Position numbers and translations under genes: made by a program. A stretch of DNA of 10,730 nt from a virus (Duplodnaviria > Heunggongvirae > Uroviricota > Caudoviricetes). Below are positions 1 through 10,730 of the stretch, piece by piece. The notes beneath the pieces are model-generated. The model did no database searches. It saw only the letters and a list, made by a program, of their open reading frames with translations, and had not been told where the DNA came from. Location of the stretch: the IMG/VR virus record IMGVR_UViG_2703718851_000007; one strand, 5' to 3'. Each line of letters opens with the position of its first letter. The stretch's first letter is position 1.

Positions 1-249
1 TTAGTCGTCATTGTCCATTGAGTTAGCTTTAGCGGCTGCAACAGCTTTTGCATCCTGCTCGACGAATTTTCTAGCTGCTTTCCTAAGCTGAGTGATTTTT
101 TCTGGGTCAGTAGATGGGTCTACAATAACTGCACCACGCCCTACGACCTTGATGTTTTTAACACCAGATTTGTTCAAACGATCGGCCATGGCTTGTCCGC
201 CTTTGACCAAATCATTCAGCCCAAACATCTTCATGACTAGTTCTGACAT
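1..249 (-). CDS. Small hypothetical protein (82 aa), Lys/Ala-rich, family not recognised
   Basis: Complete ORF on minus strand: ATG at 249-247, TAA at 3-1. Perfect Shine-Dalgarno AGGAGG (plus-strand CCTCCT 255-260) 5 nt upstream of the ATG. Product MSELVMKMFGLNDLVKGG...KNIKVVGRGAVIVDPS...; no confident family assignment by eye. Confidence 0.55.
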   Translation of the reverse strand: MSELVMKMFGLNDLVKGGQAMADRLNKSGVKNIKVVGRGAVIVDPSTDPEKITQLRKAARKFVEQDAKAVAAAKANSMDNDD

Positions 250-254
250 AAAGA

Positions 255-260
255 CCTCCT
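255..260 (-). promoter_or_regulatory. Ribosome-binding site (AGGAGG) of the 1..249 gene
   Basis: Plus strand CCTCCT at 255-260 = AGGAGG on the minus strand, spacing 5 nt to the ATG at 249. Confidence 0.6.
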
Positions 261-544
261 TTCAGTCCCCCCAATGTATCCTTTTGAGGCATTTATTGCT
301 CCCCGCAGAACGGGGCGCGGGATTTTACCATAATCTACGTACTGGCTCCAAGATTTCCCGCGTGTTCCTAGTACTAGGACAGCTGCCTGAGTACCAAGTT
401 CACCTATAACATATATGCTTGGTTCGAATTTTTGCAAGGTAAAAAGTGCCTTATGTTTAAGTATGTATGATGTGGATATGACGAACATAACCACATCACA
501 AATAACTTTTTATCAGGTTTCAGTGGCTATTTGTTCGGGCAGCA

Positions 545-1198
545 TCAAGCCTGTTTTGTATCATTAGTATTTTTAGCGGTATGTCCGTCATATGCAGCAA
601 GGTAACTGCCATAGTGACGAAATAGCATTTCTGGTCCCTTATGGCCCATCTGGCCTGCAAGCCAGAACAGGTTCGCACCACGGCTGATATGGCTGGTGGC
701 GAATGTATGCCTGGTCTGATATGGGTTACGGTACCGGATACCTGCTTTACGTAAGGTTGGTATCCACGCTTTTTTCCTTATCGCATCGGCGCTGGCCCAC
801 GGTTTGTTTGTCTTTGGATCTTCAAAGACAGTAGCATCCTTCATGAATGTAAATGGCTTCTGATTTATCAGCGCCAACATTGCCTCTTCTGTCAGTTCAA
901 CTTTACGAGTACCGGCTTTTGTCTTTGTTCCTTTGATAACACCGACAACACTTGCGCTCTGGACATGGGCAGTTTTTCCAACAAAGTCGATATCACGCCA
1001 TCGAAGGGCACATAATTCAGAACTACGCAGGCCTGTATGTATAGCGAACCGGAACAGATTTTCCCATTGTTTGTTTCCGGCTGCTGCTAGTAATGCATCA
1101 ACTTCTGCTGGTGATAGCGGATCAACCACGTAGCTGCTTTCTGCTTCTGACTTATCACTTTGGTAGCGCGAAGCAGTTAACCGCAATGCGTCGAATGT
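545..1198 (-). pseudogene. Phage tyrosine integrase, 5'-truncated (catalytic domain only)
   Basis: Minus-strand frame is open only between an in-frame TAA (plus 1199-1201) and the stop at 545; no ATG near the 5' end (first start-like codon is TTG at 1186). Translation carries tyrosine-recombinase catalytic motifs (HTGLRSSEL, RHTFATSH, MGHKGPEMLFRHYGSY) but only about 25 residues precede the catalytic domain, whereas phage integrases are typically 330-400 aa with N-terminal arm/core-binding domains. Confidence 0.7.
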
Positions 1199-1886
1199 TT
1201 ATCAGCTTAACGTTGCGAAGCTTCAGGCAGCGGCATTTTCTCAACTGTCAGATTCTGACCCGTCAAAATCTGACGCATCAAAATCTGACCCGTCAAAATT
1301 TGATGCGTCGAAATCTGGCAAAAAAGCGGGTTTTCACCCGTCAGAATCTGGCGGGGATCCGTCAGTAAAATCAAAACATGATCCGTCAGATAAAAAAACT
1401 TCTCGTCCGGACGCTTCGCAACCGGACACGCAGACGGCTGAACAGGAGTTTTTAACTCGCCATCCTGATGCGGTTGTATTCAGCCCTAAAAAGCGCCAGT
1501 GGGGAACGCAGGATGATTTGACCTGCGCACAGTGGCTCTGGAAAAAAATCATCGCCCTGTACGAGCATGCCGCCGAATGTGACGGCGAGGTGGTTCGTCC
1601 CAAAGAACCGAACTGGACAGCCTGGGCAAACGAAATTCGCCTGATGTGTGTGCAGGATGGTCGTACTCATAAACAAATCTGCGAGATGTACAGCCGCGTC
1701 AGTCGCGATCCGTTCTGGTGCCGTAACGTGCTCAGCCCGTCGAAGCTGCGGGAAAAATGGGATGAGCTTTCCCTGCGCTTATCGCCGTCCGTCAGCACGT
1801 ACACAGAAAAACGCGAAGACCCGTACTTCAAAGCCAGTTACGACAATGTGGACTACAGCCAGATCCCGGCAGGATTCAGGGGGTGA
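1167..1886 (+). pseudogene. Lambdoid replication-initiator (O-like) gene, 3' fragment carrying internal iterons; no start codon
   Basis: Plus frame is open from 1167 (after TAG 1164-1166) to TGA 1884-1886 with no ATG or GTG; the first TTG is at 1518 (the 122-aa ORF in the track). The frame encodes a pentapeptide-repeat linker (SDPSK-SDASK-SDPSK-FDASK) across the 15-bp iterons, then a C-terminal domain (...CAQWLWKKIIALYEHAAECDGEVVRPKEPNWTAWANEIR...). Iterons inside the initiator gene followed by an A+T-rich stretch is the lambda O/ori layout. Family assignment is by architecture, not a recognised sequence match. Confidence 0.45.
1249..1323. repeat. Five tandem 15-bp direct repeats (iteron-like, putative ori)
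   Basis: Units TCAGATTCTGACCCG / TCAAAATCTGACGCA / TCAAAATCTGACCCG / TCAAAATTTGATGCG / TCGAAATCTGGCAAA at 1249, 1264, 1279, 1294, 1309. Degenerate copies follow at 1341-1355 and 1386-1400, with an A+T-rich tract at 1362-1400. Confidence 0.7.
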
Positions 1887-1888
1887 TC

Positions 1889-2377
1889 ATGAGTCTTTTG
1901 AATGACGTTCAGAAATTCATTGAAGCCCATCCGGGGTGTACTTCCGGAGACATTGCGGATGCTTTTGCAGGTTACTCACGGCAGCGCGTTCTGCAGTCAG
2001 CAAGCAAGTTACGTCAGAGTGGTCGTGTGGCTCACCGTTGTGAAGGGGATACACGCAGACATTTCCCGCGCCTGACTGAGAGAGCGCAGGAGGCGGAACC
2101 GCAACCAGTTCGTGAAACCAGACCTGTGCGCAATTTCTATGTCGGCACTAACGATCCCCGGGTGATTTTGTGCCTGACCCGCCAGGCGGAAGAACTGGAG
2201 TCCAGGGGCTTATACCGTCGTGCTGCAACGGTGTGGATGGCGGCATTCCGTGAAAGCCACTCCCAGCAAGAGCGAAACAATTTTCTTGCGCGTCGTGAGC
2301 GGTGTTTACGGAAAAGCAGCAAGCGCGCTGTATCGGGTGAAGAGTGGTATCTGTCAGGGAATTACGTGGGGGCGTAA
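1889..2377 (+). CDS. PerC-family-like transcriptional regulator (phage-encoded)
   Basis: ATG at 1889 preceded by GGGGGTGA; the track ORF begins at GTG 1883. Stop TAA 2375-2377 overlaps the next start (TAATG). C-terminal segment ...TRQAEELESRGLYRRAATVWMAAFRESHSQQERNNFLARRERCL resembles the PerC/Pch motif (KGLWRRAA...W) as recalled; the N-terminal 100 aa are unassigned. Confidence 0.45.
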   Translation: MSLLNDVQKFIEAHPGCTSGDIADAFAGYSRQRVLQSASKLRQSGRVAHRCEGDTRRHFPRLTERAQEAEPQPVRETRPVRNFYVGTNDPRVILCLTRQAEELESRGLYRRAATVWMAAFRESHSQQERNNFLARRERCLRKSSKRAVSGEEWYLSGNYVGA

Positions 2378-2703
2378 TGACGACGTTAACTCAATGCCAG
2401 CAGCAGGTGCTGGATATGCTGATTTCTTACCAGAAAGAACGTGGCTTCCCGCCAACCAATCAGGAGGTGGCTACCATGCTGGGATACCGTTCAGTGAATG
2501 CAGCGGTGGAGCATCTTCGCGCACTGGAGAAAAAAGGCGTCATCACGATAAAGCGTGGCGTGGCCCGGGGGATAAAGCTTCATACCGCGGTGAAGGACGA
2601 CGACAGCGAGGCGGTCGGGATTATCCGCTCACTGCTTGCCGGTGAGGAAAACGCCAGGCTGCGTGCAGCCCACTGGTTACATGAGAGGGGCCTGAAAGTA
2701 TGA
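2377..2703 (+). CDS. LexA-like DNA-binding-domain protein lacking the S24 peptidase domain
   Basis: From ATG 2377: MTTLTQCQQQVLDMLISYQKERGFPPTNQEVATMLGYRSVNAAVEHLRALEKKGVITIKRGVARGIKL... aligns residue-for-residue with the LexA N-terminal winged helix ([68 protein letters not shown]), including the recognition-helix residues (S.NAA.EH). A hinge-like LLAGEEN (compare LexA VAAGEP) is present, but the protein stops about 20 residues later; the Ser/Lys peptidase domain is absent. The track ORF starts at GTG 2344; ATG 2377 is preferred by homology and coupling. Confidence 0.7.
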   Translation: MTTLTQCQQQVLDMLISYQKERGFPPTNQEVATMLGYRSVNAAVEHLRALEKKGVITIKRGVARGIKLHTAVKDDDSEAVGIIRSLLAGEENARLRAAHWLHERGLKV

Positions 2704-3305
2704 AGTTGATCCTTCCTTTCCCGCCCAGCGTGAACACGTACTGGCGACACCCCAACAAAGGGGCATTTGCTGGTAAGAGCCTGATAAGCGCGGCGGGGCG
2801 AAAATTTCAGAGCGCGGCGTGCGCAGCAATAGTTGAGCAGTTACGTCGTCTGCCGAAACCAACGTCGGCACCTGCTTCAGTGGAGATCGTGTTGTTTCCT
2901 CCGGATAAACGCACCTGCGCCAGCGCACCGCTGGATCCGCTGACCCGCGCCGTGGTGATTTCCCTGTTTACCTGGCGGCGGGCGGAGCCTGATGACAATG
3001 CCGACGTCCCGATGGGATGGTGGGGGGATACCTGGCCTGCGGTACAGAATGACCGTTACGGCTCCCGACTGTGGCTGCTTCAGCGCAGCAAACTGACCAA
3101 TCAGCTGGTGCAGACGGTAAGGGGGTATATCCGCGAATGCCTGCAATGGATGATTGATGACGGCGTGGTGTCCCGTATTGATCTGGATATTCGCCGCACC
3201 GGGATTAATGAACTGGGTAACAGTATCACTCTCTGGTGTCGTGACGGACCGGTAATGATTTCTTTTGATGATCTGTGGAGTGCGATAACGCATGGCGGAC
3301 AGTGA
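2700..3305 (+). CDS. Chimeric ORF: RusA-like (Holliday-junction resolvase) N-terminal fragment fused in frame to a GPW/gp25-like baseplate wedge C-terminus
   Basis: N-terminus MKLILPFPPSVNTYWRH...VEIVLFPPDKR parallels RusA (ITLPWPPSNNRYYRH...IRIECHMPDRRRRDLDN), but the catalytic Asp cluster is missing. C-terminal part (...RYGSRLWLLQRSKL...WMIDDGVVSRIDLDI...) resembles gp25/GPW baseplate proteins and sits immediately upstream of baseplate J. Start ATG 2700 overlaps the previous stop (ATGA). Confidence 0.45.
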   Translation: MKLILPFPPSVNTYWRHPNKGAFAGKSLISAAGRKFQSAACAAIVEQLRRLPKPTSAPASVEIVLFPPDKRTCASAPLDPLTRAVVISLFTWRRAEPDDNADVPMGWWGDTWPAVQNDRYGSRLWLLQRSKLTNQLVQTVRGYIRECLQWMIDDGVVSRIDLDIRRTGINELGNSITLWCRDGPVMISFDDLWSAITHGGQ

Positions 3306-4350
3306 ATTTCAGCGCCCGACGCTGGCAGAAAATATCAGTATGCTCCGTAACGATTTATTCGCCAGGCTGGACGTCAGCGACACGCTCCGGCGCATGGATG
3401 AAGACGTGCGGGCAAAGGTGTATGCGGCGGCGCTGCATACGGTTTACGGTTACATCGATTATCTGGCAATGAACATGCTGCCTGACCTGTGCGATGAGTC
3501 CTGGCTGGCGCGACATGCTGCGATGAAACGGTGTCCGCGCAAGGGGGCCACGGCTGCCAGCGGGTATATGCGCTGGGAAGGTGTCAGCGATGGCCTGAAG
3601 GTGACCGCCGGGAGTGTTATTCAGCGCGATGACCTGGTTCAGTACACGGCAACTGCCGATGCAACCAGCTCCGGTGGTGTCCTGCGCGTGCCGATCGCCT
3701 GCTCAAGTGCAGGTGCGGTCGGTAACGCTGACGACGGTACGGCATTAATCCTGGTCACGCCGGTGAATGGTCTGCCGTCTTCCGGTGTGGCTGACACCCT
3801 TACAGGCGGATTTGATACTGAAGAGCTGGAAACGTGGCGCGCCCGCGTCATTGAGCGGTATTACTGGACGCCTCAGGGCGGGGCTGACGGGGACTATGTC
3901 GTCTGGGCTAAAGAAGTGCCCGGCATTACCCGCGCATGGACATACCGTCACTGGATGGGAACGGGAACTGTCGGTGTGATGATTGCCAGCAGTGACCTGA
4001 TTAATCCCATTCCGGAAGAATCAACGGAAACGGCAGCAAGACAACATATCGTGCCACTGGCCCCGGTGGCAGGCTCTGATTTGTATGTATTCAGGCCGGT
4101 GGCACATACGGTGGATTTTCATATCCGCGTGACGCCGGACACACCAGAAATACGAGCCGCCATCACCGCGGAGTTGCGTTCGTTTCTTCTGCGTGATGGT
4201 TATCCGCAGGGAGAACTGAAGGTATCGCGTATCAGTGAGGCGATTTCCGGTGCGAACGGGGAATACAGCCATCAGTTGCTTGCACCGGTGGACAATATCT
4301 CCATTGCGAAAAACGAACTGGCGGTACTGGGGACGATTTCATGGACGTGA
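3292..4350 (+). CDS. Baseplate J-like protein (P2 gpJ / Mu gp47 family)
   Basis: 352-aa ORF. C-terminal motifs (...[33 protein letters not shown]...[24 protein letters not shown]...) parallel P2 gpJ (...ISVTSPSPACVTISVLS...LYLYPGPESEPIRAAAVKKLEAYI...). Gene order W-J-I-fibre is canonical. Start overlaps the upstream ORF by 14 nt. Confidence 0.8.
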
Positions 4351-4925
4351 CAAACGATGATTACATCCGCCTGTTATCGGCACTGTTGCCGCCCGGTCCG
4401 GCGTGGTCAGCCAGCGATCCGGCGATTGCCGGTGCGGCACCGTCATTAACCCGTGTTCATCAGCGTGCGGATGCCCTGATGCGGGAGCTGGATCCGCGCA
4501 CCACCACTGAACTGATAAACCGCTGGGAGCGTCTGTGCGGTCTGCCGGATGAATGTATTCCGGCGGGAACGCAGACCCTTCGCCAGCGTCAGCAACGGCT
4601 GGATGCGAAGGTTAACCTGGCGGGCGGCATCAACGAGGATTTTTATCTTGCACAGCTTGCTGCCCTGGGCAGACCAGATGCCACCATCACGCGATACGAC
4701 AAAAGCACGTTCACCTGCTCATCGGCCTGTACTGACGCGGTGAATGCGCCGGAATGGCGGTATTACTGGCAGGTCAACATGCCAGCCACCACCAACGCCA
4801 CCTGGATGACATGTGGCGATCCCTGTGATTCCGCACTGCGTATCTGGGGTGACACCGTTGTCGAGTGTGTGCTTAACAAACTCTGCCCGTCGCATACCTA
4901 CATAATTTTTAAATATCCGGAGTAA
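4341..4925 (+). CDS. Phage tail protein, YmfQ/DUF2313-like (gpI position)
   Basis: 194-aa ORF whose ATG 4341 overlaps the baseplate J stop (ATGGACGTGA). It occupies the slot between baseplate J and the tail fibre. Resemblance to the e14 YmfQ-type tail protein is from recollection, not an alignment. Confidence 0.5.
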
Positions 4926-4928
4926 TCC

Positions 4929-5507
4929 ATGCATCGTATAGACACGAAAACCGCGCAGAAGGATAAGTTCGGCGCGGGTAAGAACGGTTTTACCCGTGGT
5001 AACCCCCAGACTGGCACACCAGCCACCGATCTGGATGATGACTACTTTGACATGTTGCAGGAAGAACTTTGTAGCGTTGTTGAGGCATCCGGTGCCAGTC
5101 TGGAGAAGGCGCGGCACGACCAGTTGCTTACCGCGCTTCGTGCTCTGCTGTTAAGCCGCAAGAATCCGTTTGGTGATATCAAATCGGACGGCACGGTGAA
5201 AAAGGGTATTAACTTTCGCAGCCTGACCGACAGCATAGATACGTCTTCACCAATGGGACGCTTTTTCTTCCATGTCATGGGCGCACTTGCCGAAATGGAA
5301 AGGGAGCTGATAGTCGAACGTACCAGGGCGGGATTGGCTGCGGCTCGTGAAGAAGGGCGAATAGGTGGGCGTCGATCAAAGCTAACTGATGAACAGTGGG
5401 CGCAGGCAGGAAGGTTGGTTGCAGCAGGTGAATCACGACAGCGTGTGGCATTAATTTACGATGTTGGGATATCGACGCTATATAAAAAATTTCCGGCAAC
5501 CAGGTAA
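4929..5507 (+). pseudogene. Fusion of a tail-fibre N-terminal constant region (about 92 aa) to the C-terminal half of a Pin/Gin/Hin-family DNA invertase
   Basis: ATG 4929 with GGAG RBS. Residues 93-192 ([100 protein letters not shown]) are near-identical to the Pin/Gin C-terminal half including the HTH. The invertase N-terminal catalytic domain (active-site Ser about residue 10) is absent. Residues 1-92 ([47 protein letters not shown]...) look like a phage tail-fibre N-terminus. Confidence 0.75.
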
Positions 5508-5575
5508 ATCATTGAGTTATGCGACGATGATGACTGATGGTGGCTAATGCCATTGATCTCCGTTTAAATAAAAAC

Positions 5576-5595
5576 TACTGTATATAATATCAGTA
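5576..5595. promoter_or_regulatory. LexA operator (SOS box) overlapping the putative umuDC promoter
   Basis: TACTGTATATAATATCAGTA: palindromic CTGT-N8-(T)CAG with an AT-rich spacer, 17 bp upstream of the umuD ATG. Compare the E. coli umuDC box TACTGTATATAAAAACAGTA; the right half TCAG also occurs in the uvrA box. A TATAAT hexamer (5583-5588) lies inside the box. Confidence 0.7.
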
Positions 5596-5611
5596 TTAAT
5601 TGACGGTGATT

Positions 5612-6034
5612 ATGATGCAGTTTTTCACTCCCTCCGGGTTGCGTGCAGTGCAGCCGCTTCCACTCTATGGCGATCTTGTACCCTGTGGTTTCCCAAGCCC
5701 TGCTCAGGACTACGTTGAACAGCGTATCGATCTTAACGAGCTACTGATACAACACCCCAGCGCCACGTACTTCGTTAAGGCATCTGGTGACTCGATGATT
5801 GATGCCGGGATCGGCGAAGGCGATTTACTGGTAGTGGACAGTTCACGCAAGGCAGAGCACGGCGATATCGTTATTGCTGCGGTGGACGGGGAATTTACCG
5901 TTAAGCGCCTACAGTTATGGCCAACTGTCCAGCTTAACCCTGAAAACCGCGCCTGGTCGCCTATCATCATCGGGAGCGAAGAAACGCTCGATGTTTTTGG
6001 TGTGGTGACGTTCATCGTGAAATCGACGGGTTGA
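5612..6034 (+). CDS. umuD: UmuD (SOS mutagenesis protein, S24 peptidase-like, DNA polymerase V subunit)
   Basis: Strong similarity to E. coli UmuD over the whole length: cleavage site LVPC-GFPSP, catalytic Ser (KASGDSM) and Lys (EFTVKRLQL) all present. ATG 5612 chosen (MMQFF...); the track starts at TTG 5600. Stop TGA 6032-6034 sits 2 nt before the umuC ATG. Confidence 0.9.
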
Positions 6035-6036
6035 TC

Positions 6037-7305
6037 ATGTACGCGTTGTGTGATGTGAACTCGTTCTATGCCTCCTGTGAAACTGTATTTCGCCCGGATC
6101 TCAAAGGTAGGCCGGTTGTGGTGCTTTCCAACAATGACGGTTGTGTTATTGCCCGCAGCACAGAGGCAAAGAAACTGGGTATCAAAATGGGTGAGCCGTA
6201 CTTCAGGCAGAAGGACTTTTTCCGGCGCCATGGGGTGGTGTGCTTCAGCAGCAACTATGAGCTGTATGCGGATATGTCTAACCGGGTGATGACCACGCTG
6301 GAAGAAATGTCGCCGCGCTGTGAAATTTACTCGATAGACGAGGCATTTTGTGACCTCACTGGTGTACGTAACTGTCGTGATCTGACTGATTTTGGCCGTG
6401 AAATCCGTGCTACTGTTCTGCAGCGAACGCATCTGACAGTGGGTGTTGGCATTGCCCAGACCAAGACGCTGGCCAAGCTGGCCAACCACGCGGCCAAACA
6501 ATGGCAGCGGCAGACGGGCGGGGTGGTAGACCTGTCCAGTGTCGATCGCCAGCGCAAACTGATGGCCGCGCTGCCGGTTGATGAAGTCTGGGGCATCGGT
6601 CGGCGTATTTCGAAAAAACTGGAGGCGATGGGGATCAAGACCGTACTGCAACTCGCTGATACGGACATCCGTTTTATCCGTAAACATTTTAATGTCGTGC
6701 TGGAGCGAACGGTGCGTGAGTTACGCGGAGAACCCTGCCTGGCACTGGAAGAATTCGCGCCAGTGAAACAGGAAATTATCTGTTCCCGCTCTTTTAGCGG
6801 TCGTATCACGGAGTATGAAGAGATGCGCCAGGCGATCTGCAGCTATGCCTCGCGGGCGGCAGAGAAACTGCGTGGCGAGCACCAGTATTGCCGTTTTATC
6901 TCGGCGTTTGTGAAGACCAGCCCGTTCGCACTGAACGAGCCCTATTATGGCAATAATGCCTCCGTGAAGCTTCTGACGCCTACGCAGGACAGTCGGGATA
7001 TCATCAGTGCAGCCATCCGCTGTCTGGACGCCATATGGCAAGACGGATATCGGTATCAGAAAGCCGGGGTGATGTTGGGTGATTTCTTCAGTCAGGGCGT
7101 GGCCCAGCTCAACTTGTTCGATGATAACGCGCCGCGCCCGGGCAGTGAGAAACTGATGGAAGTGCTGGATCACCTCAATGCCAAAGGCGGGAGGGGGACG
7201 CTGTATTTTGCAGGACAGGGTATCCAGCAGCAGTGGCAGATGAAACGGGAAATGCTTTCTCCACGTTACACCACCCGATTCTCTGATCTACCCGTTGTCA
7301 GGTGA
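6037..7305 (+). CDS. umuC: UmuC (Y-family DNA polymerase V catalytic subunit)
   Basis: [22 protein letters not shown]...[11 protein letters not shown]...[29 protein letters not shown]... is near-colinear with E. coli UmuC (MFALCDVNAFYASCE...), with the catalytic Asp/Glu residues conserved. ATG 6037 preferred over TTG 6031. Confidence 0.92.
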
Positions 7306-7383
7306 TTTTCCGGTGACAGATTCTTCGGAAAACGGTGGATGAGTTTATTAGAAACGATAAATCAAATGTTCTTATTTTTGATT

Positions 7384-7420
7384 ACTAAGTCTCAGTTATA
7401 CAATTCGGCTGAGACTTAGT
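7384..7420. repeat. Perfect 12-bp inverted repeat (hairpin) between convergent umuC and the KAP NTPase gene
   Basis: ACTAAGTCTCAG (7384-7395), 13-nt loop, CTGAGACTTAGT (7409-7420). Lies at the GC-content transition; not followed by a clean U-tract on either strand. Confidence 0.5.
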
Positions 7421-7428
7421 ATGCCAAT

Positions 7429-9177
7429 TTATAGGCAAGAAATTGCGTGTCTTACTGTATTGTTTAAATCATATATCGCGCCATATTTAAAACTTTCTTG
7501 CTTACCTATGAAATAAATGTCAAGTTTTTGATTGAGGTATATAAGGCGCTGCTTTTCATTTGTGGCAAACTGAGATATGTTACTAATTCTATAATTACTT
7601 CTTAAAAAAGCGTTGAATTGCTCTATATCTTTAATGCTCCATTCTTTTAAAATGCACTTGGTCAAAAATGGTGCGCCAAGTACTTCTAGCGTTTTATAGT
7701 TTCCCATGGGATCTAATTTGAGTAATAAGTTAACATCAAATAAAGCCCAACCATCAGTTTCAATAATTTCCTTAATTGTCTTTAAGTTTTTTCTCTTTTC
7801 AATATTATTATGACGGCCTGATAATATTGAAAATATAAGTTTCCCATCATCAAAGCCACTAGTCCAACTACTGATTGGATTGTTGTTATGAAATTCAAAG
7901 TAAGTAATAATGTCCTCGTCACTAAATTCGAGTGATTTAGAACTCATGAACTGCAATGTTAGTAATGATGATTTTGGAAGATATTTATGATAAGTCAAAT
8001 ATTCATAGTTCTGAACCGCCCTAAGCCATTGGTGCAAATCACATGGTATTGTTCTAGAAATTAAACCAATAATCGTGGGGAAAAATTCTTTTTCATCTGT
8101 CTCCTGTAGTTCTGGTCGAGTTGAAACTGCAATATCAATTGTACTTAAAGGTGTTGGCACATAAAAAACATCGTCCAATATATCATAAAGAGAAACATGA
8201 CCACTGTAGTAATTTTTAAGGTGAATATTAATTTTATAATTGTGTAATGTAGACAAAAGTCTCGGTTCATGTGGATTTTCATCGCTGCTGGAATTTTGGG
8301 GTGGGATATGCTGGATGCTGTCAATGATCAGTTCGTCCATGGATTTGTTATGGATAAATAACAAGATAAAATATGACAAAATTGAGCTTAGTATGGTTTT
8401 AGAGGCGATTTTCCACTCTAGTTCAGGGTGGTTTTCTGCGTGTAAATATAATGGAAGTGCAGTATTTAAACACCTCATTAAAATTCTTATGTTAACTATG
8501 TTATGGTATGATATTATTTCTTCGAAAATCATTTTGTCTTCAGTGGGGAAGTACTGTAGTTTTTCTTCAATTATTCTCATATCTAATATGTCGCGAGGGT
8601 TTGGGTTGTAATGAAGTGAATCAGAAATAATTTTTTCTTTATGTTCTAATGACAGGTGGGATTCGGCAGATGTATTAGATATAACAATAAAATCCAAACT
8701 AGAGATTTTTGAGGTTGAATATAACGAATGACAATAAGTTAGTATTTCATTGGCCAGTGAGGGAGTGCTTAATCGCTCAATGTCATCTAATATAAATATG
8801 CCACTGAGTTTGGAGAGTATGTTCTCTCTTACACTTGAACCAATGGAACTGAACACACCATTAAGCACATTGGCACTAGCGGGAGAACCACTGCTTACAC
8901 TACCCAAACCAGAAATAGTATCTAACCCAGACTTAAGAGTGTCTATATCTTGAAGATAGTAGCAGTCAATAATCTTTGCTTTGAAATCTGCAAGAGACTT
9001 AACGCCTAGTAATGAAATATAATAAAACACATTAAGATCATAAAAACGAGGAAATACATTTTTAATAAAAAAAGTTTTACCTGTTCCCCATTTTCCATCA
9101 ATAAAAATAAGTCCATCTCTTTCGGATTGTAGAAGATGAACTATTTTTACAATCAAATTGCTATTAGAGTTTTCCAT
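7429..9177 (-). CDS. KAP-family P-loop NTPase (582 aa), AT-rich, horizontally acquired
   Basis: Walker A FIDGKWGTGKTFF at residues about 25-37. Walker B with the KAP-type Asp-Asp...Arg signature GIFILDDIERL about 90 residues later. An internal hydrophobic segment (TILSSILSYFILLFIH) is consistent with the membrane insertions described for KAP NTPases. Codon usage is dominated by AAT/ATT/TTT/AAA; GC is roughly 30% by eye versus about 50% for the flanking umuC. Confidence 0.65.
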   Translation of the reverse strand: MENSNSNLIVKIVHLLQSERDGLIFIDGKWGTGKTFFIKNVFPRFYDLNVFYYISLLGVKSLADFKAKIIDCYYLQDIDTLKSGLDTISGLGSVSSGSPASANVLNGVFSSIGSSVRENILSKLSGIFILDDIERLSTPSLANEILTYCHSLYSTSKISSLDFIVISNTSAESHLSLEHKEKIISDSLHYNPNPRDILDMRIIEEKLQYFPTEDKMIFEEIISYHNIVNIRILMRCLNTALPLYLHAENHPELEWKIASKTILSSILSYFILLFIHNKSMDELIIDSIQHIPPQNSSSDENPHEPRLLSTLHNYKINIHLKNYYSGHVSLYDILDDVFYVPTPLSTIDIAVSTRPELQETDEKEFFPTIIGLISRTIPCDLHQWLRAVQNYEYLTYHKYLPKSSLLTLQFMSSKSLEFSDEDIITYFEFHNNNPISSWTSGFDDGKLIFSILSGRHNNIEKRKNLKTIKEIIETDGWALFDVNLLLKLDPMGNYKTLEVLGAPFLTKCILKEWSIKDIEQFNAFLRSNYRISNISQFATNEKQRLIYLNQKLDIYFIGKQESFKYGAIYDLNNTVRHAISCL

Positions 9178-9254
9178 TATAATTGTTATCCTAATTTAAA
9201 GAGGTGTAAATAAAGCATGAAATAGTATAATGCTAATTTGAGGTAAAAACATTA

Positions 9255-9890
9255 TTATTCAATTGAAACAATAAGATATTCACCTTGATTTTTCGCATTA
9301 CCCATCGCTCGCGTAACTGCATGCCAGATAAACTTGTCAGCTTGCACGGCACCGTAGTCGGTAATCGCTTCTGCTTCCTTGCCTCGGCGTCTTGGCGCAT
9401 CCCATTCCCGGGCTGCCTCCGGTGACAATACAAGTGGCTGTCGGTCGTGTATATCAACCAAGCCTTCATCGGCCGCAGACGTCACTATTAAAAAACCTTC
9501 GGCCTCGTCACTACGTTCGAAGGGGCGCTGCCGATTGCCGCCATGAATATTGGCTACCCATCAGTTCGGTGAATGAAGTAGGGTTGTTTTTTTGCTATCT
9601 TCGGTCTTGTCGAGTAGGGCACCGAAGTTACCTTCAACGCCCCCTCTAAGAACCGTGCGTGAGAGTTTCCAGCTCACACGGCTCAAGCCTTATCAAACAC
9701 CACTGTGAAATGATGCGGCAGGTGCAGTCAGACGCGTGGTCCGGGATCGGATATAATCTGTCCAATCCGTGTCATATGGATTAAGTGCAGATGCGACGAG
9801 TCTGTGACGGACAATTTTGACGCTCTGAGCGTGAACCAGCCTCAGTATTGTAACTTTCCCCGTATCAGTGTCCCGATAAAGACCTGACAC
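9255..9890 (-). pseudogene. SRAP/YedK-like (DUF159, abasic-site processing protein) pseudogene, 5'-truncated with nonsense and frameshift lesions
   Basis: C-terminal ORF (9255-9485) reads ...AADEGLVDIHDRQPLVLSPEAAREW...GKEAEAI...FIWHAVTRAMGNAKNQGEYL, matching the YedK C-terminus (AADQGLVDIHDRRPLVLSPEAAREW...SWHPVSRAVGNVKNQGAEL). Upstream, a different frame gives KKQPYFIHRTDG-stop-PIFMAAIGS (YedK KKQPFFIYRADGQPIFMAAIGS: a Q codon is replaced by TAG), then a frameshift. Further upstream fragments (HLHL, GKVTIL) sit in two other frames. The N-terminal MCGR catalytic-Cys region is not present. Confidence 0.65.
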
Positions 9891-9896
9891 CCCATT

Positions 9897-10730
9897 TTAC
9901 TGCTGCCACCAAGCATATAGATCTAGACCTTTGGTAATTACACCTAAGAAAATCCCTAAAACTATTAATCCAGTCACTAATGGGTGTTCTTTGAGCCTCA
10001 TCGTTAACCAATATGGATGCCAGCTTCTTGGCCAAAACCATTTATTGTTAGTTTTGAGAGTACGATCATGAATCCGCTCAGCAATATTACAGAGTATGTC
10101 GACCTTTCGTAATGTAGACATTTCTAGCTCTCTATACTTACCTTTGACATATGCCTCGGCTTCCTCAGCGCCGGCTAAGACATCTTTATCAGCGATACCA
10201 TTTTTTTCAACAAGAGCTAACATTCTACCTGCACGGCCACTTTTGGCGGTATGCCCAATATAGCTTCGTCCATATATAGAAACGGCAGCTCTCGCTAAAT
10301 CGAGTTTTCTGTCATCAGTAAGTATAAAGGGCTCGCCACCTAGGACTGAAAATCTATGCTGTAAGGCCTGAAATCCGTAATTGTTATCTCGCATGTTCCA
10401 ATGCAGAAATGTGCATTGTGCGTATCTTTTCAGGAATGTAAAGTAGTTATCTAATAGATGATGCTCAAGGATATCGAGATTTTTTTCATCTGAAACATCA
10501 AGACCTAATAATTCTGCGGATCTATTAAGAGCCCAATGATCTGTTTGCCCACTGCCTAAATTTCTGACAGCAATAGAGGTGATCCTTGTGGATTTACCGC
10601 CCACAGCATCATAAAAAGATTCACATGAATAATGGACAACGTAGCATTGATGCGCATTTGCAAAACATTTTTCGATAAAACCAATGTACTCGCTGCGATC
10701 TCTAATCTGTTGTTTGATGGAAGATGACAT
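9897..10730 (-). CDS. Hypothetical protein (277 aa) with a C-terminal transmembrane helix; function unknown
   Basis: ATG is the last 3 nt of the window (10730-10728), so the true start cannot be confirmed; stop TAA at 9899-9897. C-terminus ...EHPLVTGLIVLGIFLGVITKGLDLYAWWQQ contains a roughly 19-residue hydrophobic helix. GC is lower than the host-like segments (about 40% by eye). No recognisable catalytic motif by eye. Confidence 0.5.
   Translation of the reverse strand: MSSSIKQQIRDRSEYIGFIEKCFANAHQCYVVHYSCESFYDAVGGKSTRITSIAVRNLGSGQTDHWALNRSAELLGLDVSDEKNLDILEHHLLDNYFTFLKRYAQCTFLHWNMRDNNYGFQALQHRFSVLGGEPFILTDDRKLDLARAAVSIYGRSYIGHTAKSGRAGRMLALVEKNGIADKDVLAGAEEAEAYVKGKYRELEMSTLRKVDILCNIAERIHDRTLKTNNKWFWPRSWHPYWLTMRLKEHPLVTGLIVLGIFLGVITKGLDLYAWWQQ

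What the first reader, a model, noticed from the sequence alone, without database searches (positions are those of the whole stretch)
2900..3060. In-frame RusA::baseplate-W chimera marks deletion of the entire lysis, packaging, head and tail-tube region
One ORF begins like RusA (nin-region resolvase) and ends like a gp25/GPW baseplate protein, with neither catalytic core intact at the join. This implies loss of Q, lysis, terminase, head and most tail genes between them, while the downstream baseplate J and gpI-like genes remain intact and coupled. Retention of intact baseplate genes in an otherwise gutted prophage may reflect domestication or simply recent decay.
Basis: partly seen in the sequence, partly recalled or inferred. 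Interest (0 to 1): 0.4.

Follow-up and report, generated by a model that had tools for sequence, protein, structure and literature searches.

The report
Deletion-scar fusion gene in decayed prophage
The odd gene is the scar of a 21.5-kb deletion that gutted an SfV-like prophage beside the E. coli ssrA gene, which is ordinary prophage decay, except that the break point in rusA turns out to be reused in many other, independent deletions.

Summary
ORF 2700-3305 (201 aa) is RusA residues 1-69 fused in frame to residues 10-141 of a Mu-gp46-type baseplate wedge protein. The crossover lies in a 3-bp microhomology, TAA, at 2906-2908.

An intact relative (E. coli CP55_Sichuan, prophage next to ssrA) shows the window is that prophage with three deletions:
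- 5,120 bp, joining the integrase remnant to the replication-gene remnant.
- 21,488 bp, from rusA to gp46. It removes Q, lysis, terminase, head, sheath, tube, tape measure, hub and spike.
- 1,405 bp, creating a second in-frame chimera of tail fibre and Pin invertase.

RusA has lost all its catalytic residues. The GP46 domain is complete, so "neither core intact" is only half right. gp47 and gp48 are intact, but I found no evidence of domestication. A sister remnant at the same locus has lost them while keeping the cargo, and changes since the deletion are too few to test.

The exact fusion occurs in at least 9 contigs and in none of 5,426 complete E. coli genomes. K-12 e14 carries an annotated precedent (ymfN).

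One unexpected result: the rusA break point, a TA at the centre of TCCGGA-TA-ACCGGA, recurs with at least 13 different partners in both directions, while three control positions gave none. The gp46 break point recurs twice. The mechanism is unknown.

The parts
2700..3305 (+). Chimeric ORF (201 aa): RusA residues 1-69, then K70 at the join, then Mu-gp46-type baseplate wedge residues 11-141. It starts with rusA's own ATG, which overlaps the stop of the upstream gene (ATGA). Its stop overlaps the start of gp47.
2700..2908 (+). 5' fragment of rusA (codons 1-69). All catalytic residues are lost.
   Evidence: 69/69 aa identical to SfV RusA. Aligned to E. coli RusA structure 1q8r. Catalytic residues from PMC1636454. 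Pfam RusA is not detected in the fragment.
2906..2908 (.). Crossover microhomology TAA of the 21,488-bp deletion. Parents: rusA ...CCTCCGGATAA|CCGG and gp46 ...GAACGGTAA|ACGC.
2900..2908 (.). Surviving left arm and centre (TCCGGA-TA-A) of the rusA quasi-palindrome TCCGGA-TA-ACCGGA. This is the recurrent break-point site.
2906..3305 (+). gp46-type (Mup46 / gpW / gp25-equivalent) baseplate wedge gene, lacking its first 9 codons. The GP46 domain is complete.
   Evidence: (PDB 9ki1, baseplate protein gp46, E 1.1e-14)
3292..4350 (+). Baseplate J / Mu gp47-type gene, full length (352 aa).
   Evidence: Pfam Baseplate_J E 3.5e-52. 347/352 aa identical to SfV orf19.
4341..4925 (+). Mu gp48 / YmfQ / gpI-type baseplate wedge gene, full length (194 aa).
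   Evidence: Pfam Phage_Mu_Gp48 E 3.6e-26. 191/194 aa identical to SfV orf20.
4929..5507 (+). Second in-frame deletion chimera. Tail-fibre N-terminus (about residues 1-91) is fused to the C-terminal part of a Pin-type serine invertase. The Resolvase profile is matched only over positions 91-144 of 145, plus HTH_7, so the N-terminal part of the catalytic domain is lost. The junction is in AAA at 5200-5202 and the deletion is 1,405 bp.
545..1179 (-). Integrase remnant: the C-terminal 211 codons, with the N-terminal half deleted.
   Evidence: Pfam Phage_integrase..
1178..1179 (.). Junction (TA) of the 5,120-bp deletion. It removed the integrase N-terminus, xis-region genes, yfdR, the cI-like and cro-like genes, ymfL, DUF4222 and the first 78 codons of the replication gene.
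1179..1886 (+). Replication-initiator (O-like) remnant of 236 codons with no start codon before 1518. It contains a 15-bp iteron-like array at 1254-1317.
1883..2377 (+). PerC-family (YfdN-like) gene, intact.
2377..2703 (+). Small protein with a LexA DNA-binding domain (SfV orf42-like, 108 aa), intact. It is translationally coupled to the chimera.

Best explanation
The 201-aa ORF is the scar of a large internal deletion in a defective SfV-like prophage. This phage type has lambdoid early genes and a Mu-type contractile tail. The prophage lies next to ssrA in E. coli.

Shown:
- A 21,488-bp segment between rusA codon 69/70 and gp46 codon 9/10 was lost by illegitimate joining across a 3-bp TAA microhomology. 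The join happens to be in frame.
- Two further microhomology deletions are present: 5,120 bp across TA and 1,405 bp across AAA. Together they removed the integrase N-terminus, the immunity region, the start of the replication gene and the invertible tail-fibre segment.

Inferred:
- The element can no longer excise, replicate, lyse the cell or make particles.
- The fusion protein cannot resolve Holliday junctions, because all active-site residues are gone.
- Its intact GP46 domain and the intact gp47 and gp48 have no hub, spike, tube or sheath to assemble with in this element. They are passengers lying between the deletion end point and the right-end cargo (umuDC-like polymerase V genes, a KAP-type NTPase and others).

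Also shown: the end points are not random. The rusA end point is a TA at the centre of the quasi-palindrome TCCGGA-TA-ACCGGA. That same TA is used in at least 13 different junctions, running both rightward and leftward, in independent prophages. The gp46 end point is reused in two other independent chimeras.

Most likely mechanism (inferred): this rusA site is prone to breakage or replication stalling. The broken end was then joined to a distant GGTA-like sequence by microhomology-mediated end joining or template switching.
For: - Domain split. Nucleotide-level parents and junction.
- Collinear alignment to the intact CP55_Sichuan prophage gives four segments and three gaps of 5,120, 21,488 and 1,405 bp, with 2-3 bp overlaps.
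- The gene order of SfV matches.
- The RusA catalytic residues map beyond residue 69.
- The fusion architecture is unique among 5.8 billion proteins.
- The same triple-deleted element occurs on at least 9 contigs. The five loci compared are 99.8% identical to the window.
- The junction is absent from 5,426 complete E. coli genomes, although both halves are common there.
- Independent deletions in the same phage family: GF31 KilA-N::J, SZQ1 yfdR::tail fibre, and K-12 e14 ymfN, annotated as 'chimeric replication protein/phage terminase'.
- Hotspot, rightward: 5 of 5 IMG/VR hits and 2 of 2 metagenome hits with a non-canonical sequence after ...CCGGATA are chimeras with different partners. P0009 is another.
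- Hotspot, leftward: 5 further distinct X::rusA(70-) chimeras end at the same TA.
- Controls: three scans of identical design at other rusA positions found 0 chimeras. Among 114 sampled rusA genes none had a break between nt 209 and 365.
- gp46 site reuse: P0004, portal::gp46, at the e14 locus, and P0002, DNA-circulation::gp46, with alleles about 3% diverged from the window.
Against: - No expression data exist. The promoter scan found no convincing sigma-70 promoter upstream (2 sites against 4.4 expected), so it is unknown whether the fusion is made.
- The immediate ancestor is not in hand. CP55 is 96.7-97.3% identical in the two middle segments and 99.5-99.95% in the outer ones, so the deletion sizes are estimates from a relative.
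- For the hotspot, the total number of rusA genes scanned is unknown (more than 120).
- One metagenome partner (L298) looks non-enterobacterial and may be an assembly chimera.
- The predicted hairpins at both sites are no more stable than shuffled sequence (z about -1).
- The P0004 junction crosses at AA, not TA, so the gp46 site is less precise than the rusA site.
Confidence: 0.93

Rival explanations
1. Domestication. The host keeps the gp46'-gp47-gp48 wedge module, and perhaps the fusion protein, because it is useful. It might serve as spare parts for a tailocin or another resident SfV-like prophage, or the RusA N-terminal piece might give the wedge protein a new role.
For: - All three reading frames are open and tightly coupled.
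- The deletion is in frame, and so is the second chimera.
- Two other independent deletions stop at the same gp46 codon and also leave gp46(10-141)-gp47-gp48 intact.
- dN/dS against functional phages is 0.03-0.10.
Against: - The low dN/dS reflects history as a working phage before the deletion.
- Among contigs that share the deletion, the three genes carry 1 synonymous and 2 non-synonymous changes, which is compatible with neutrality.
- Strain SZQ1 kept the same locus and cargo but deleted gp46-48. K-12 e14 and GF31 have truncated J.
- No hub, spike, sheath or tube gene is in the element.
- The fusion is confined to a small lineage: at least 9 contigs and 0 of 5,426 complete genomes.
- Two in-frame joins out of two has a chance probability of 1/9.
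Confidence: 0.05
2. Site-specific enzyme. The deletion was made or started by a sequence-specific enzyme acting on the rusA quasi-palindrome, not by random illegitimate recombination. Candidates are a free-standing homing-type endonuclease of a related phage, a host defence nuclease, or a recombinase using pseudo-sites that share the central TA. A homing-type endonuclease is suggested because these phages carry an HNH/DUF968 gene about 1 kb downstream of rusA.
For: - Every one of the at least 13 junctions at this site keeps the TA, and deletions run in both directions from it.
- The TA sits at the dyad centre of TCCGGA-TA-ACCGGA.
- Three of 9 right-hand partners read TA-N-CCG, like rusA's own TA-A-CCG.
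- The natural synonymous variants found lie inside the palindrome arms: CCAGATA, CCTGATA and AACAGGA. That is what target-site immunity polymorphisms would look like.
Against: - No enzyme has been identified.
- A Pin/Gin-type invertase is excluded. The junction is not at the centre of any 26-bp gix-like site, partners are diverse genes rather than tail-fibre crossover sites, and the known family core dinucleotides are not TA (the last point is from my own knowledge).
- Imperfect microhomology (GG(A)TA against GGTA) explains partner choice without any protein recognition.
- The variants in the arms may simply be third-codon-position variation.
Confidence: 0.2
3. Artefact. The junction is a mis-assembly or chimeric contig, and the real genome has separate rusA and gp46 genes.
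For: Only 3 bp are shared at the join. One metagenome hit at the same site (L298) has a partner that looks foreign.
Against: - The identical 10.7-kb arrangement was assembled independently from at least 5 samples. These include two NCBI assemblies with contigs of 234-264 kb and three Logan read-set assemblies. They have 0 gaps and 16-21 mismatches relative to the window.
- A 3-bp repeat cannot mislead a k-mer assembler.
Confidence: 0.01

Closest known systems
E. coli K-12 cryptic prophage e14: ymfN (oweE/aaaE) and the beeE/jayE junction
   Same: e14 is also an SfV-like prophage gutted by internal deletions. It keeps ymfQ (gp48-type), tail-fibre genes, pin and right-end cargo. Its RefSeq annotation already lists ymfN as 'chimeric replication protein/phage terminase', an ORF spanning a deletion junction, and a portal fragment next to a truncated J pseudogene. 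The analysis by Mehta, Casjens and Krishnaswamy (BMC Microbiol 2004, 4:4) is cited in PMC6379469. I could not retrieve that paper here, so its content is from my own knowledge.
   Different: The locus differs (icd against ssrA), as do the integrase, the cargo (mcrA and lit against umuDC-like genes and a KAP NTPase) and the break points. In e14, J is truncated and gp46 is gone. Here gp46(10-141), gp47 and gp48 are intact.
Shigella phage SfV (NC_003444) and relatives SfI, SfII, SfIV
   Same: SfV supplies both parents in one functional genome. orf43 (RusA) matches the first part 69/69 aa and orf18 (Mu gp46 homologue) matches the second part 131/132 aa. orf19 and orf20 match the downstream genes at 98-99% aa identity.
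   Different: SfV is a complete, viable phage. In prophage order, about 20.9 kb separates the two break points. It carries dam and gtr genes that are absent here.
Intact prophage at ssrA in E. coli CP55_Sichuan (NZ_CP053731.1, about 4,111,167-4,149,909)
   Same: Same locus and same flanking cargo on both sides (99.5% and 99.95% identity). The gene order is collinear, and the window aligns to it as four blocks.
   Different: It has all the late genes. Its middle blocks are only 96.7-97.3% identical, so it is a cousin of the ancestor, not the ancestor itself.
Other deletion chimeras that share one break point: P0004 (portal::gp46, at the e14 locus), P0002 (DNA-circulation::gp46), P0009 (RusA(1-69)::gp46(84-141)), and IMG/VR loci L263-L267, L280, L282-L284 and L290
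   Same: They use the same rusA TA or the same gp46 CGGTAA|AC site, join across 2-6 bp of microhomology, and belong to the same phage family.
   Different: The partner genes differ, the deletions range from 0.76 kb to more than 20 kb, the host loci differ and the alleles are about 3% diverged. They are therefore independent events.

Membership tests
RusA Holliday-junction resolvase (Pfam PF05866) | Sequence matches the family model over the whole fold of about 120-130 aa | tested here: not met
   Pfam RusA is not detected in the fusion or in residues 1-69 alone, even at E of 10 or less. The full-length SfV parent scores 54.7 bits over residues 6-118. Only PHROG 34 sees the N-terminal piece.
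RusA Holliday-junction resolvase (Pfam PF05866) | Catalytic acidic residues and lysine (E. coli D70, D72, K76, D90/D91) | tested here: not met
   The alignment of SfV RusA to 1q8r places these at SfV D74, D76, K80 and D94/D95. The fusion keeps only residues 1-69. Residue roles are from PMC1636454.
Mu gp46-type baseplate wedge protein (Pfam GP46, PF07409) | Domain match above the curated cut-off | tested here: met
   109.5 bits against a cut-off of 28.6, covering profile positions 1-99 of 101. It also matches the solved Mu-type 'baseplate protein gp46', PDB 9ki1, at E 1.1e-14.
Mu gp46-type baseplate wedge protein (Pfam GP46, PF07409) | Native N-terminus, and a position directly after the gp45/V spike gene and before the gp47 and gp48 genes | tested here: inconclusive
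   gp47 and gp48 follow with overlapping stop and start codons. The first 9 residues are replaced by 69 RusA residues, and gp45 and all upstream tail genes are deleted.
   No GPW_gp25 hit for the fusion or for the SfV parent at E of 10 or less. The functional equivalence of Mup46, gpW, gp25 and TssE is stated in PMC6300606. I did not compare folds.
Defective (cryptic) SfV-like prophage | Collinear with a complete phage of the family, except for internal deletions that remove essential genes | tested here: met
   Four collinear blocks against the CP55 prophage, with gaps of 5,120, 21,488 and 1,405 bp. The gene content of the gaps is listed. The order matches SfV.
Domesticated contractile-tail particle (tailocin-like) | Complete set of sheath, tube, hub, spike, wedge and fibre genes plus a lysis or release function | tested here: not met
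   Within the element only wedge genes are present (gp46', gp47, gp48) and the tail fibre is truncated. Whether compatible genes lie elsewhere in the genome cannot be tested with a 10.7-kb window.
Deletion mediated by a Pin/Gin/Hin-type serine invertase | Crossover at the central dinucleotide of 26-bp gix/hix-like sites in both partners | tested here: not met
   By inspection of the junction sequences, neither parent has two gix-like half-sites around the TA. Partners are diverse genes. The consensus gix/hix sequences used for comparison are from my own knowledge.

The most novel reading that the evidence does not exclude
The rusA quasi-palindrome TCCGGA-TA-ACCGGA is a true site-specific break site in a widespread family of enterobacterial prophages. 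It would be cut by an as yet unidentified nuclease, such as a free-standing homing endonuclease of competing phages or a host defence enzyme, or it would be a strongly structure-prone fragile site. On this reading the gutting of these prophages is not random decay. It is repeatedly started at one nucleotide, and the RusA::gp46 fusion is one of its footprints.
Probability: 0.2. Interest if true: 0.6.

Novelty: new member of a known kind. Interest (0 to 1): 0.3.

Why it matters
The fusion gene itself is a textbook example of prophage decay and matters mainly for annotation. It should be labelled a deletion-junction pseudogene, not "phage tail protein". The element should be called a defective remnant whose only plausible working parts are its cargo: the umuDC-like polymerase V genes and the KAP-type NTPase.

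The recurrent break point is more useful. If one dinucleotide in rusA starts deletions in both directions in many independent lysogens, prophage inactivation in E. coli is partly directed by sequence. That gives a concrete, testable site for studying how lysogens disarm their prophages, or how phages and hosts attack each other's DNA.

Tried and rejected
- An exact-match scan of the 34-nt junction in one genome per species found nothing. The source was identified through the protein instead.
- The sigma-70 promoter scan of 1-5700 gave fewer sites than shuffled sequence, so nothing can be said about expression.
- dN/dS against SfV and CP55 is low, but it reflects history before the deletion. 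Comparison within the lineage gave only 3 changes in the wedge genes, too few to test selection.
- A scan for other chimeras at the gp46 site in IMG/VR found only a SNP variant. In 1,102 complete-genome records the gp45-gp46 boundary is intact in 1,100.
- I considered and rejected Pin/Gin-type invertase action. GGATAA and GTAAAC resemble parts of gix half-sites, but the junction is not at a site centre. My regular-expression search for an inverted copy of a gix-like motif seen in the tail-fibre gene found only one copy per locus.
- Both break points fall in loops of small predicted hairpins, but the folding energies are ordinary (z about -1). Structure alone is therefore not demonstrated as the cause.
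- I considered IS-mediated adjacent deletion, integrase secondary sites, type I CRISPR-Cas3 deletion and restriction cuts (TCCGGA, GGATCC, CCGG). None fits a precise TA junction with no element left behind. This is inference only.
- The 2004 e14 paper (PMC331406) is not held in the library. Literature searches found nothing on a rusA break-point hotspot.
Full report
**1. What is at the coordinates**

The window has an ORF at 2700-3305 on the + strand, 201 aa long. Profile searches split it cleanly.
- Residues 1-72 match PHROG 34, RusA-like Holliday-junction resolvase (E 9e-24).
- Residues 71-198 match PHROG 180, baseplate wedge subunit (E 1.4e-52).
- Pfam finds a complete GP46 domain (PF07409) over residues 81-183, profile positions 1-99 of 101, at 109.5 bits against a cut-off of 28.6.
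- Pfam's RusA model does not detect the N-terminal piece. It does detect the full-length parent.

BLAST against phage genomes shows both halves come from one phage type. Window 2344-2908 matches the LexA-like and rusA genes of mEp460, Stx2c phages and SfV at about 97%. Window 2902 onward matches the baseplate genes of SfV, SfI, SfII and SfIV at about 97%.

**2. The exact junction**

Residues 1-69 are 69/69 identical to SfV RusA (orf43). Residues 70-201 are 131/132 identical to residues 10-141 of SfV orf18, the Mu gp46 homologue.

At the DNA level the two parents and the product are:
- rusA parent: ...CCTCCGGATAA|CCGGATCC
- gp46 parent: ...GTGAACGGTAA|ACGCACC
- window: ...CCTCCGGATAAACGCACC

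rusA homology runs to 2908 and gp46 homology starts at 2906. The crossover therefore lies in TAA at 2906-2908, and the join is in frame.

The alignment of SfV RusA to the solved E. coli RusA (1q8r) puts the essential residues D70, D72, K76 and D90/D91 at SfV D74, D76, K80 and D94/D95. All lie beyond residue 69, so the resolvase part is dead (residue roles from PMC1636454).

The gp46 part has lost only MELWLTVNG. It also matches the solved 'baseplate protein gp46' (PDB 9ki1, E 1.1e-14). The literature equates Mup46, Mup47 and Mup48 with P2 gpW, gpJ and gpI and with T4 gp25, gp6 and gp7 (PMC6300606).

**3. What was lost**

E. coli CP55_Sichuan carries an intact prophage at the same place. It lies between the ypjA region and ssrA, with the same flanking genes. 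The window aligns to it in four collinear blocks:

| Window block | Identity to CP55 |
|---|---|
| 1-1179 | 99.5% |
| 1178-2908 | 97.3% |
| 2906-5202 | 96.7% |
| 5200-10730 | 99.95% |

The three gaps between the blocks are as follows.
- **Gap 1, 5,120 bp, junction TA at 1178-1179.** It removes the integrase N-terminus, small xis-region genes, yfdR, the cI-like and cro-like genes, ymfL, DUF4222 and the first 78 codons of the replication gene.
- **Gap 2, 21,488 bp.** It removes the 3' part of rusA, KilA-N, DUF968/HNH, Q, holins, endolysin, spanins, HNH, both terminase subunits, portal, protease, capsid, connectors, sheath, tube, chaperone, tape measure, DNA-circulation protein, hub and spike.
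- **Gap 3, 1,405 bp, junction AAA at 5200-5202.** It fuses the first 91 or so residues of the tail fibre in frame to the C-terminal part of a Pin-type invertase, giving ORF 4929-5507. The Resolvase profile is matched only from position 91.

The element therefore cannot excise, replicate, lyse the cell or build particles.

**4. Is it a natural protein family or an artefact?**

A search of 5.8 billion proteins found one cluster covering the full length, annotated 'bacteriophage V tail protein [Escherichia coli]'. All other strong hits are 141-aa GP46 proteins or other chimeras covering 70% or less.

The exact protein lies on at least 9 contigs from independent samples, including NCBI contigs of 234 and 264 kb. 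All loci shown have the same triple-deleted gene order and border ssrA/smpB. The five loci compared are 99.8% identical to the window, with no gaps.

None of 5,426 complete E. coli genomes has the junction, although 2,439 have one or both halves. The fusion is real, and it is confined to a small lineage.

**5. Domestication or decay?**

gp47 (352 aa) and gp48 (194 aa) are full length and overlap their neighbours' stop codons. Their dN/dS against SfV and CP55 is 0.03-0.10, but that divergence arose while they were phage genes.

Among contigs that share the deletions, the differences are these:
- The fusion has 1 synonymous change.
- gp47 has 1 non-synonymous change.
- gp48 has 1 non-synonymous change.
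- The KAP NTPase has a nonsense mutation in one contig.

This is too little to test selection.

Against domestication:
- Strain SZQ1 has a different remnant at the same locus that deleted everything from yfdR to the tail fibre, gp46-48 included, yet keeps the right-end cargo at 99.9% identity.
- GF31 and K-12 e14 have truncated J genes.
- No hub, spike, tube or sheath gene remains in the element.
- No promoter-like site stands out upstream.

The simplest reading is that the wedge genes survive because they lie between a deletion end point and the retained cargo.

**6. Precedent**

K-12 e14 is the same kind of SfV-like remnant. Its RefSeq annotation lists ymfN as 'chimeric replication protein/phage terminase' and a portal fragment next to a J pseudogene. 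Reviews describe such deletional decay of 'grounded' prophages (PMC6379469). The chimera is therefore a new member of a known kind.

**7. An unexpected result: the break points recur**

The protein search also returned other chimeras.
- **P0004** is a portal N-terminus fused to gp46 starting at the same K10. It lies in an e14-locus element.
- **P0002** is a DNA-circulation::gp46 junction in the same CGGTAA, with 6 bp of microhomology. It lies in a lambda-like hybrid prophage.
- **P0009** is RusA 1-69 fused to gp46 residue 84 onward.

Nucleotide alignments confirm that the shared end points agree to within 1-3 bp. The alleles are about 3% diverged from the window, so these are independent events.

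I then scanned IMG/VR for the 22-mer ending ...CCTCCGGATA followed by a non-canonical base at position +5.
- All 5 hits were chimeras with different partners: the C-terminal part of lambda J, the C-terminal part of an endolysin, a side tail fibre, KilA-N (a deletion of only 0.76 kb) and one unidentified sequence.
- A metagenome scan added 2 more, one of doubtful origin.
- The mirror-image scan found 5 further distinct chimeras in which different upstream sequences, three of them within the replication gene, are joined to rusA from |ACCGGATCC. Each partner ends in ...GTA or ...TTA.

Controls support the excess.
- Three scans of identical design at other conserved rusA positions gave no chimeras: 0 hits, 0 hits, and 10 hits that were all diverged rusA homologues.
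- Among 114 sampled rusA genes none was broken between nt 209 and 365.

Every junction keeps a TA. That TA is the dyad centre of TCCGGA-TA-ACCGGA, which is also a direct repeat, CCGGAT-AA-CCGGAT. Known partners carry GGTA. Three of 9 right-hand partners read TA-N-CCG, like rusA itself.

**8. Mechanism**

Shown: joining across 2-6 bp of microhomology, and recurrent use of one rusA dinucleotide in both directions.

Inferred: the rusA site is prone to breakage or fork stalling, and the end is joined to a distant GGTA-like sequence by microhomology-mediated end joining or template switching.

- In single-strand folds both break points sit in the loops of small hairpins (ATAA and GTAAA). The folding energies are not unusual (z about -1).
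- A Pin/Gin-type invertase is rejected, because the crossover is not at the centre of a 26-bp site and the partners are too diverse.
- A site-specific nuclease remains possible but untested. Candidates include a homing-type HNH enzyme of related phages, which carry an HNH/DUF968 gene about 1 kb downstream.
- The synonymous variants found inside the palindrome arms are compatible with that idea but prove nothing.
- I found no literature on this hotspot.

**9. Verdict**

- The deletion scar is correct, and so is the list of lost genes.
- "Neither core intact" is only half right.
- Domestication is unsupported.

The feature itself is ordinary. The recurrent rusA break point is the one point worth following up.

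Noticed in passing
window 2900-2908; intact site in L013 19187-19200; loci L017, L263-L267, L280, L282-L284, L288, L290, L295, L297, L298: The rusA break point is a TA at the centre of TCCGGA-TA-ACCGGA. It is reused in at least 13 different junctions, both rightward and leftward deletions, in independent prophages. Three control positions gave none. The mechanism is unknown.
   Followed up: partly
window 2904-2909; L015 about 10625-10633; L258 about 10018-10023: The gp46 break point (CGGTAA|AC, codon 9/10) is reused in two other independent chimeras: portal::gp46 at the e14 locus and DNA-circulation::gp46. It lies in a short tandem repeat, ACGGTGA-ACGGTAA-ACG.
   Followed up: partly
window 4929-5507 (junction 5200-5202): This is a second in-frame deletion chimera. 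A tail-fibre N-terminus is fused to the C-terminal part of a Pin-type serine invertase. The N-terminal part of the catalytic domain, the variable fibre parts and the fibre-assembly genes are lost (1,405 bp against CP55).
   Followed up: yes
window 545-1886 (junction 1178-1179): A third deletion of 5,120 bp joins an integrase remnant head to head with a replication-gene remnant. It removes the whole immunity and excision region. The right parent site, GGGTA|ACCGC, resembles the rusA site GGATA|ACCGG.
   Followed up: partly
window 1254-1317: There are about 4.3 copies of a 15-bp repeat (TCTGACCCGTCAAAA) inside the replication-gene remnant. This is probably the lambdoid-type origin iteron array.
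   Followed up: no
window 1805-2493: The window differs from all five sister contigs at 16 clustered SNPs (about 2.3%) in the end of rep', PerC and the start of the LexA-like gene. The rest of the 10.7 kb differs at only about 2 shared sites. This looks like a gene-conversion tract from another SfV-like prophage, which would mean the remnant still exchanges DNA.
   Followed up: partly
window 5612-7305: An intact umuD-like gene (140 aa) and umuC-like gene (422 aa; NCBIfam UmuC, 870 bits) are carried as right-end prophage cargo. They are 99.95% identical in strains whose prophage is intact, differently deleted, or triple-deleted.
   Followed up: partly
window 7429-9177 (-), 9255-9485 (-), 9897-10730 (-): Further cargo: a 582-aa P-loop NTPase (faint KAP_NTPase hit, AT-rich), a fragment of an SOS-response-associated peptidase (SRAP) pseudogene, and a 277-aa protein with no family hit. 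One sister contig (L010) has a nonsense mutation in the NTPase (Q520*).
   Followed up: no
L259 10001-10684 (protein P0006): In an otherwise intact prophage, a 281-bp deletion between 10-bp direct repeats fuses gp45 to gp46. This is another small in-frame scar in the same gene.
   Followed up: partly
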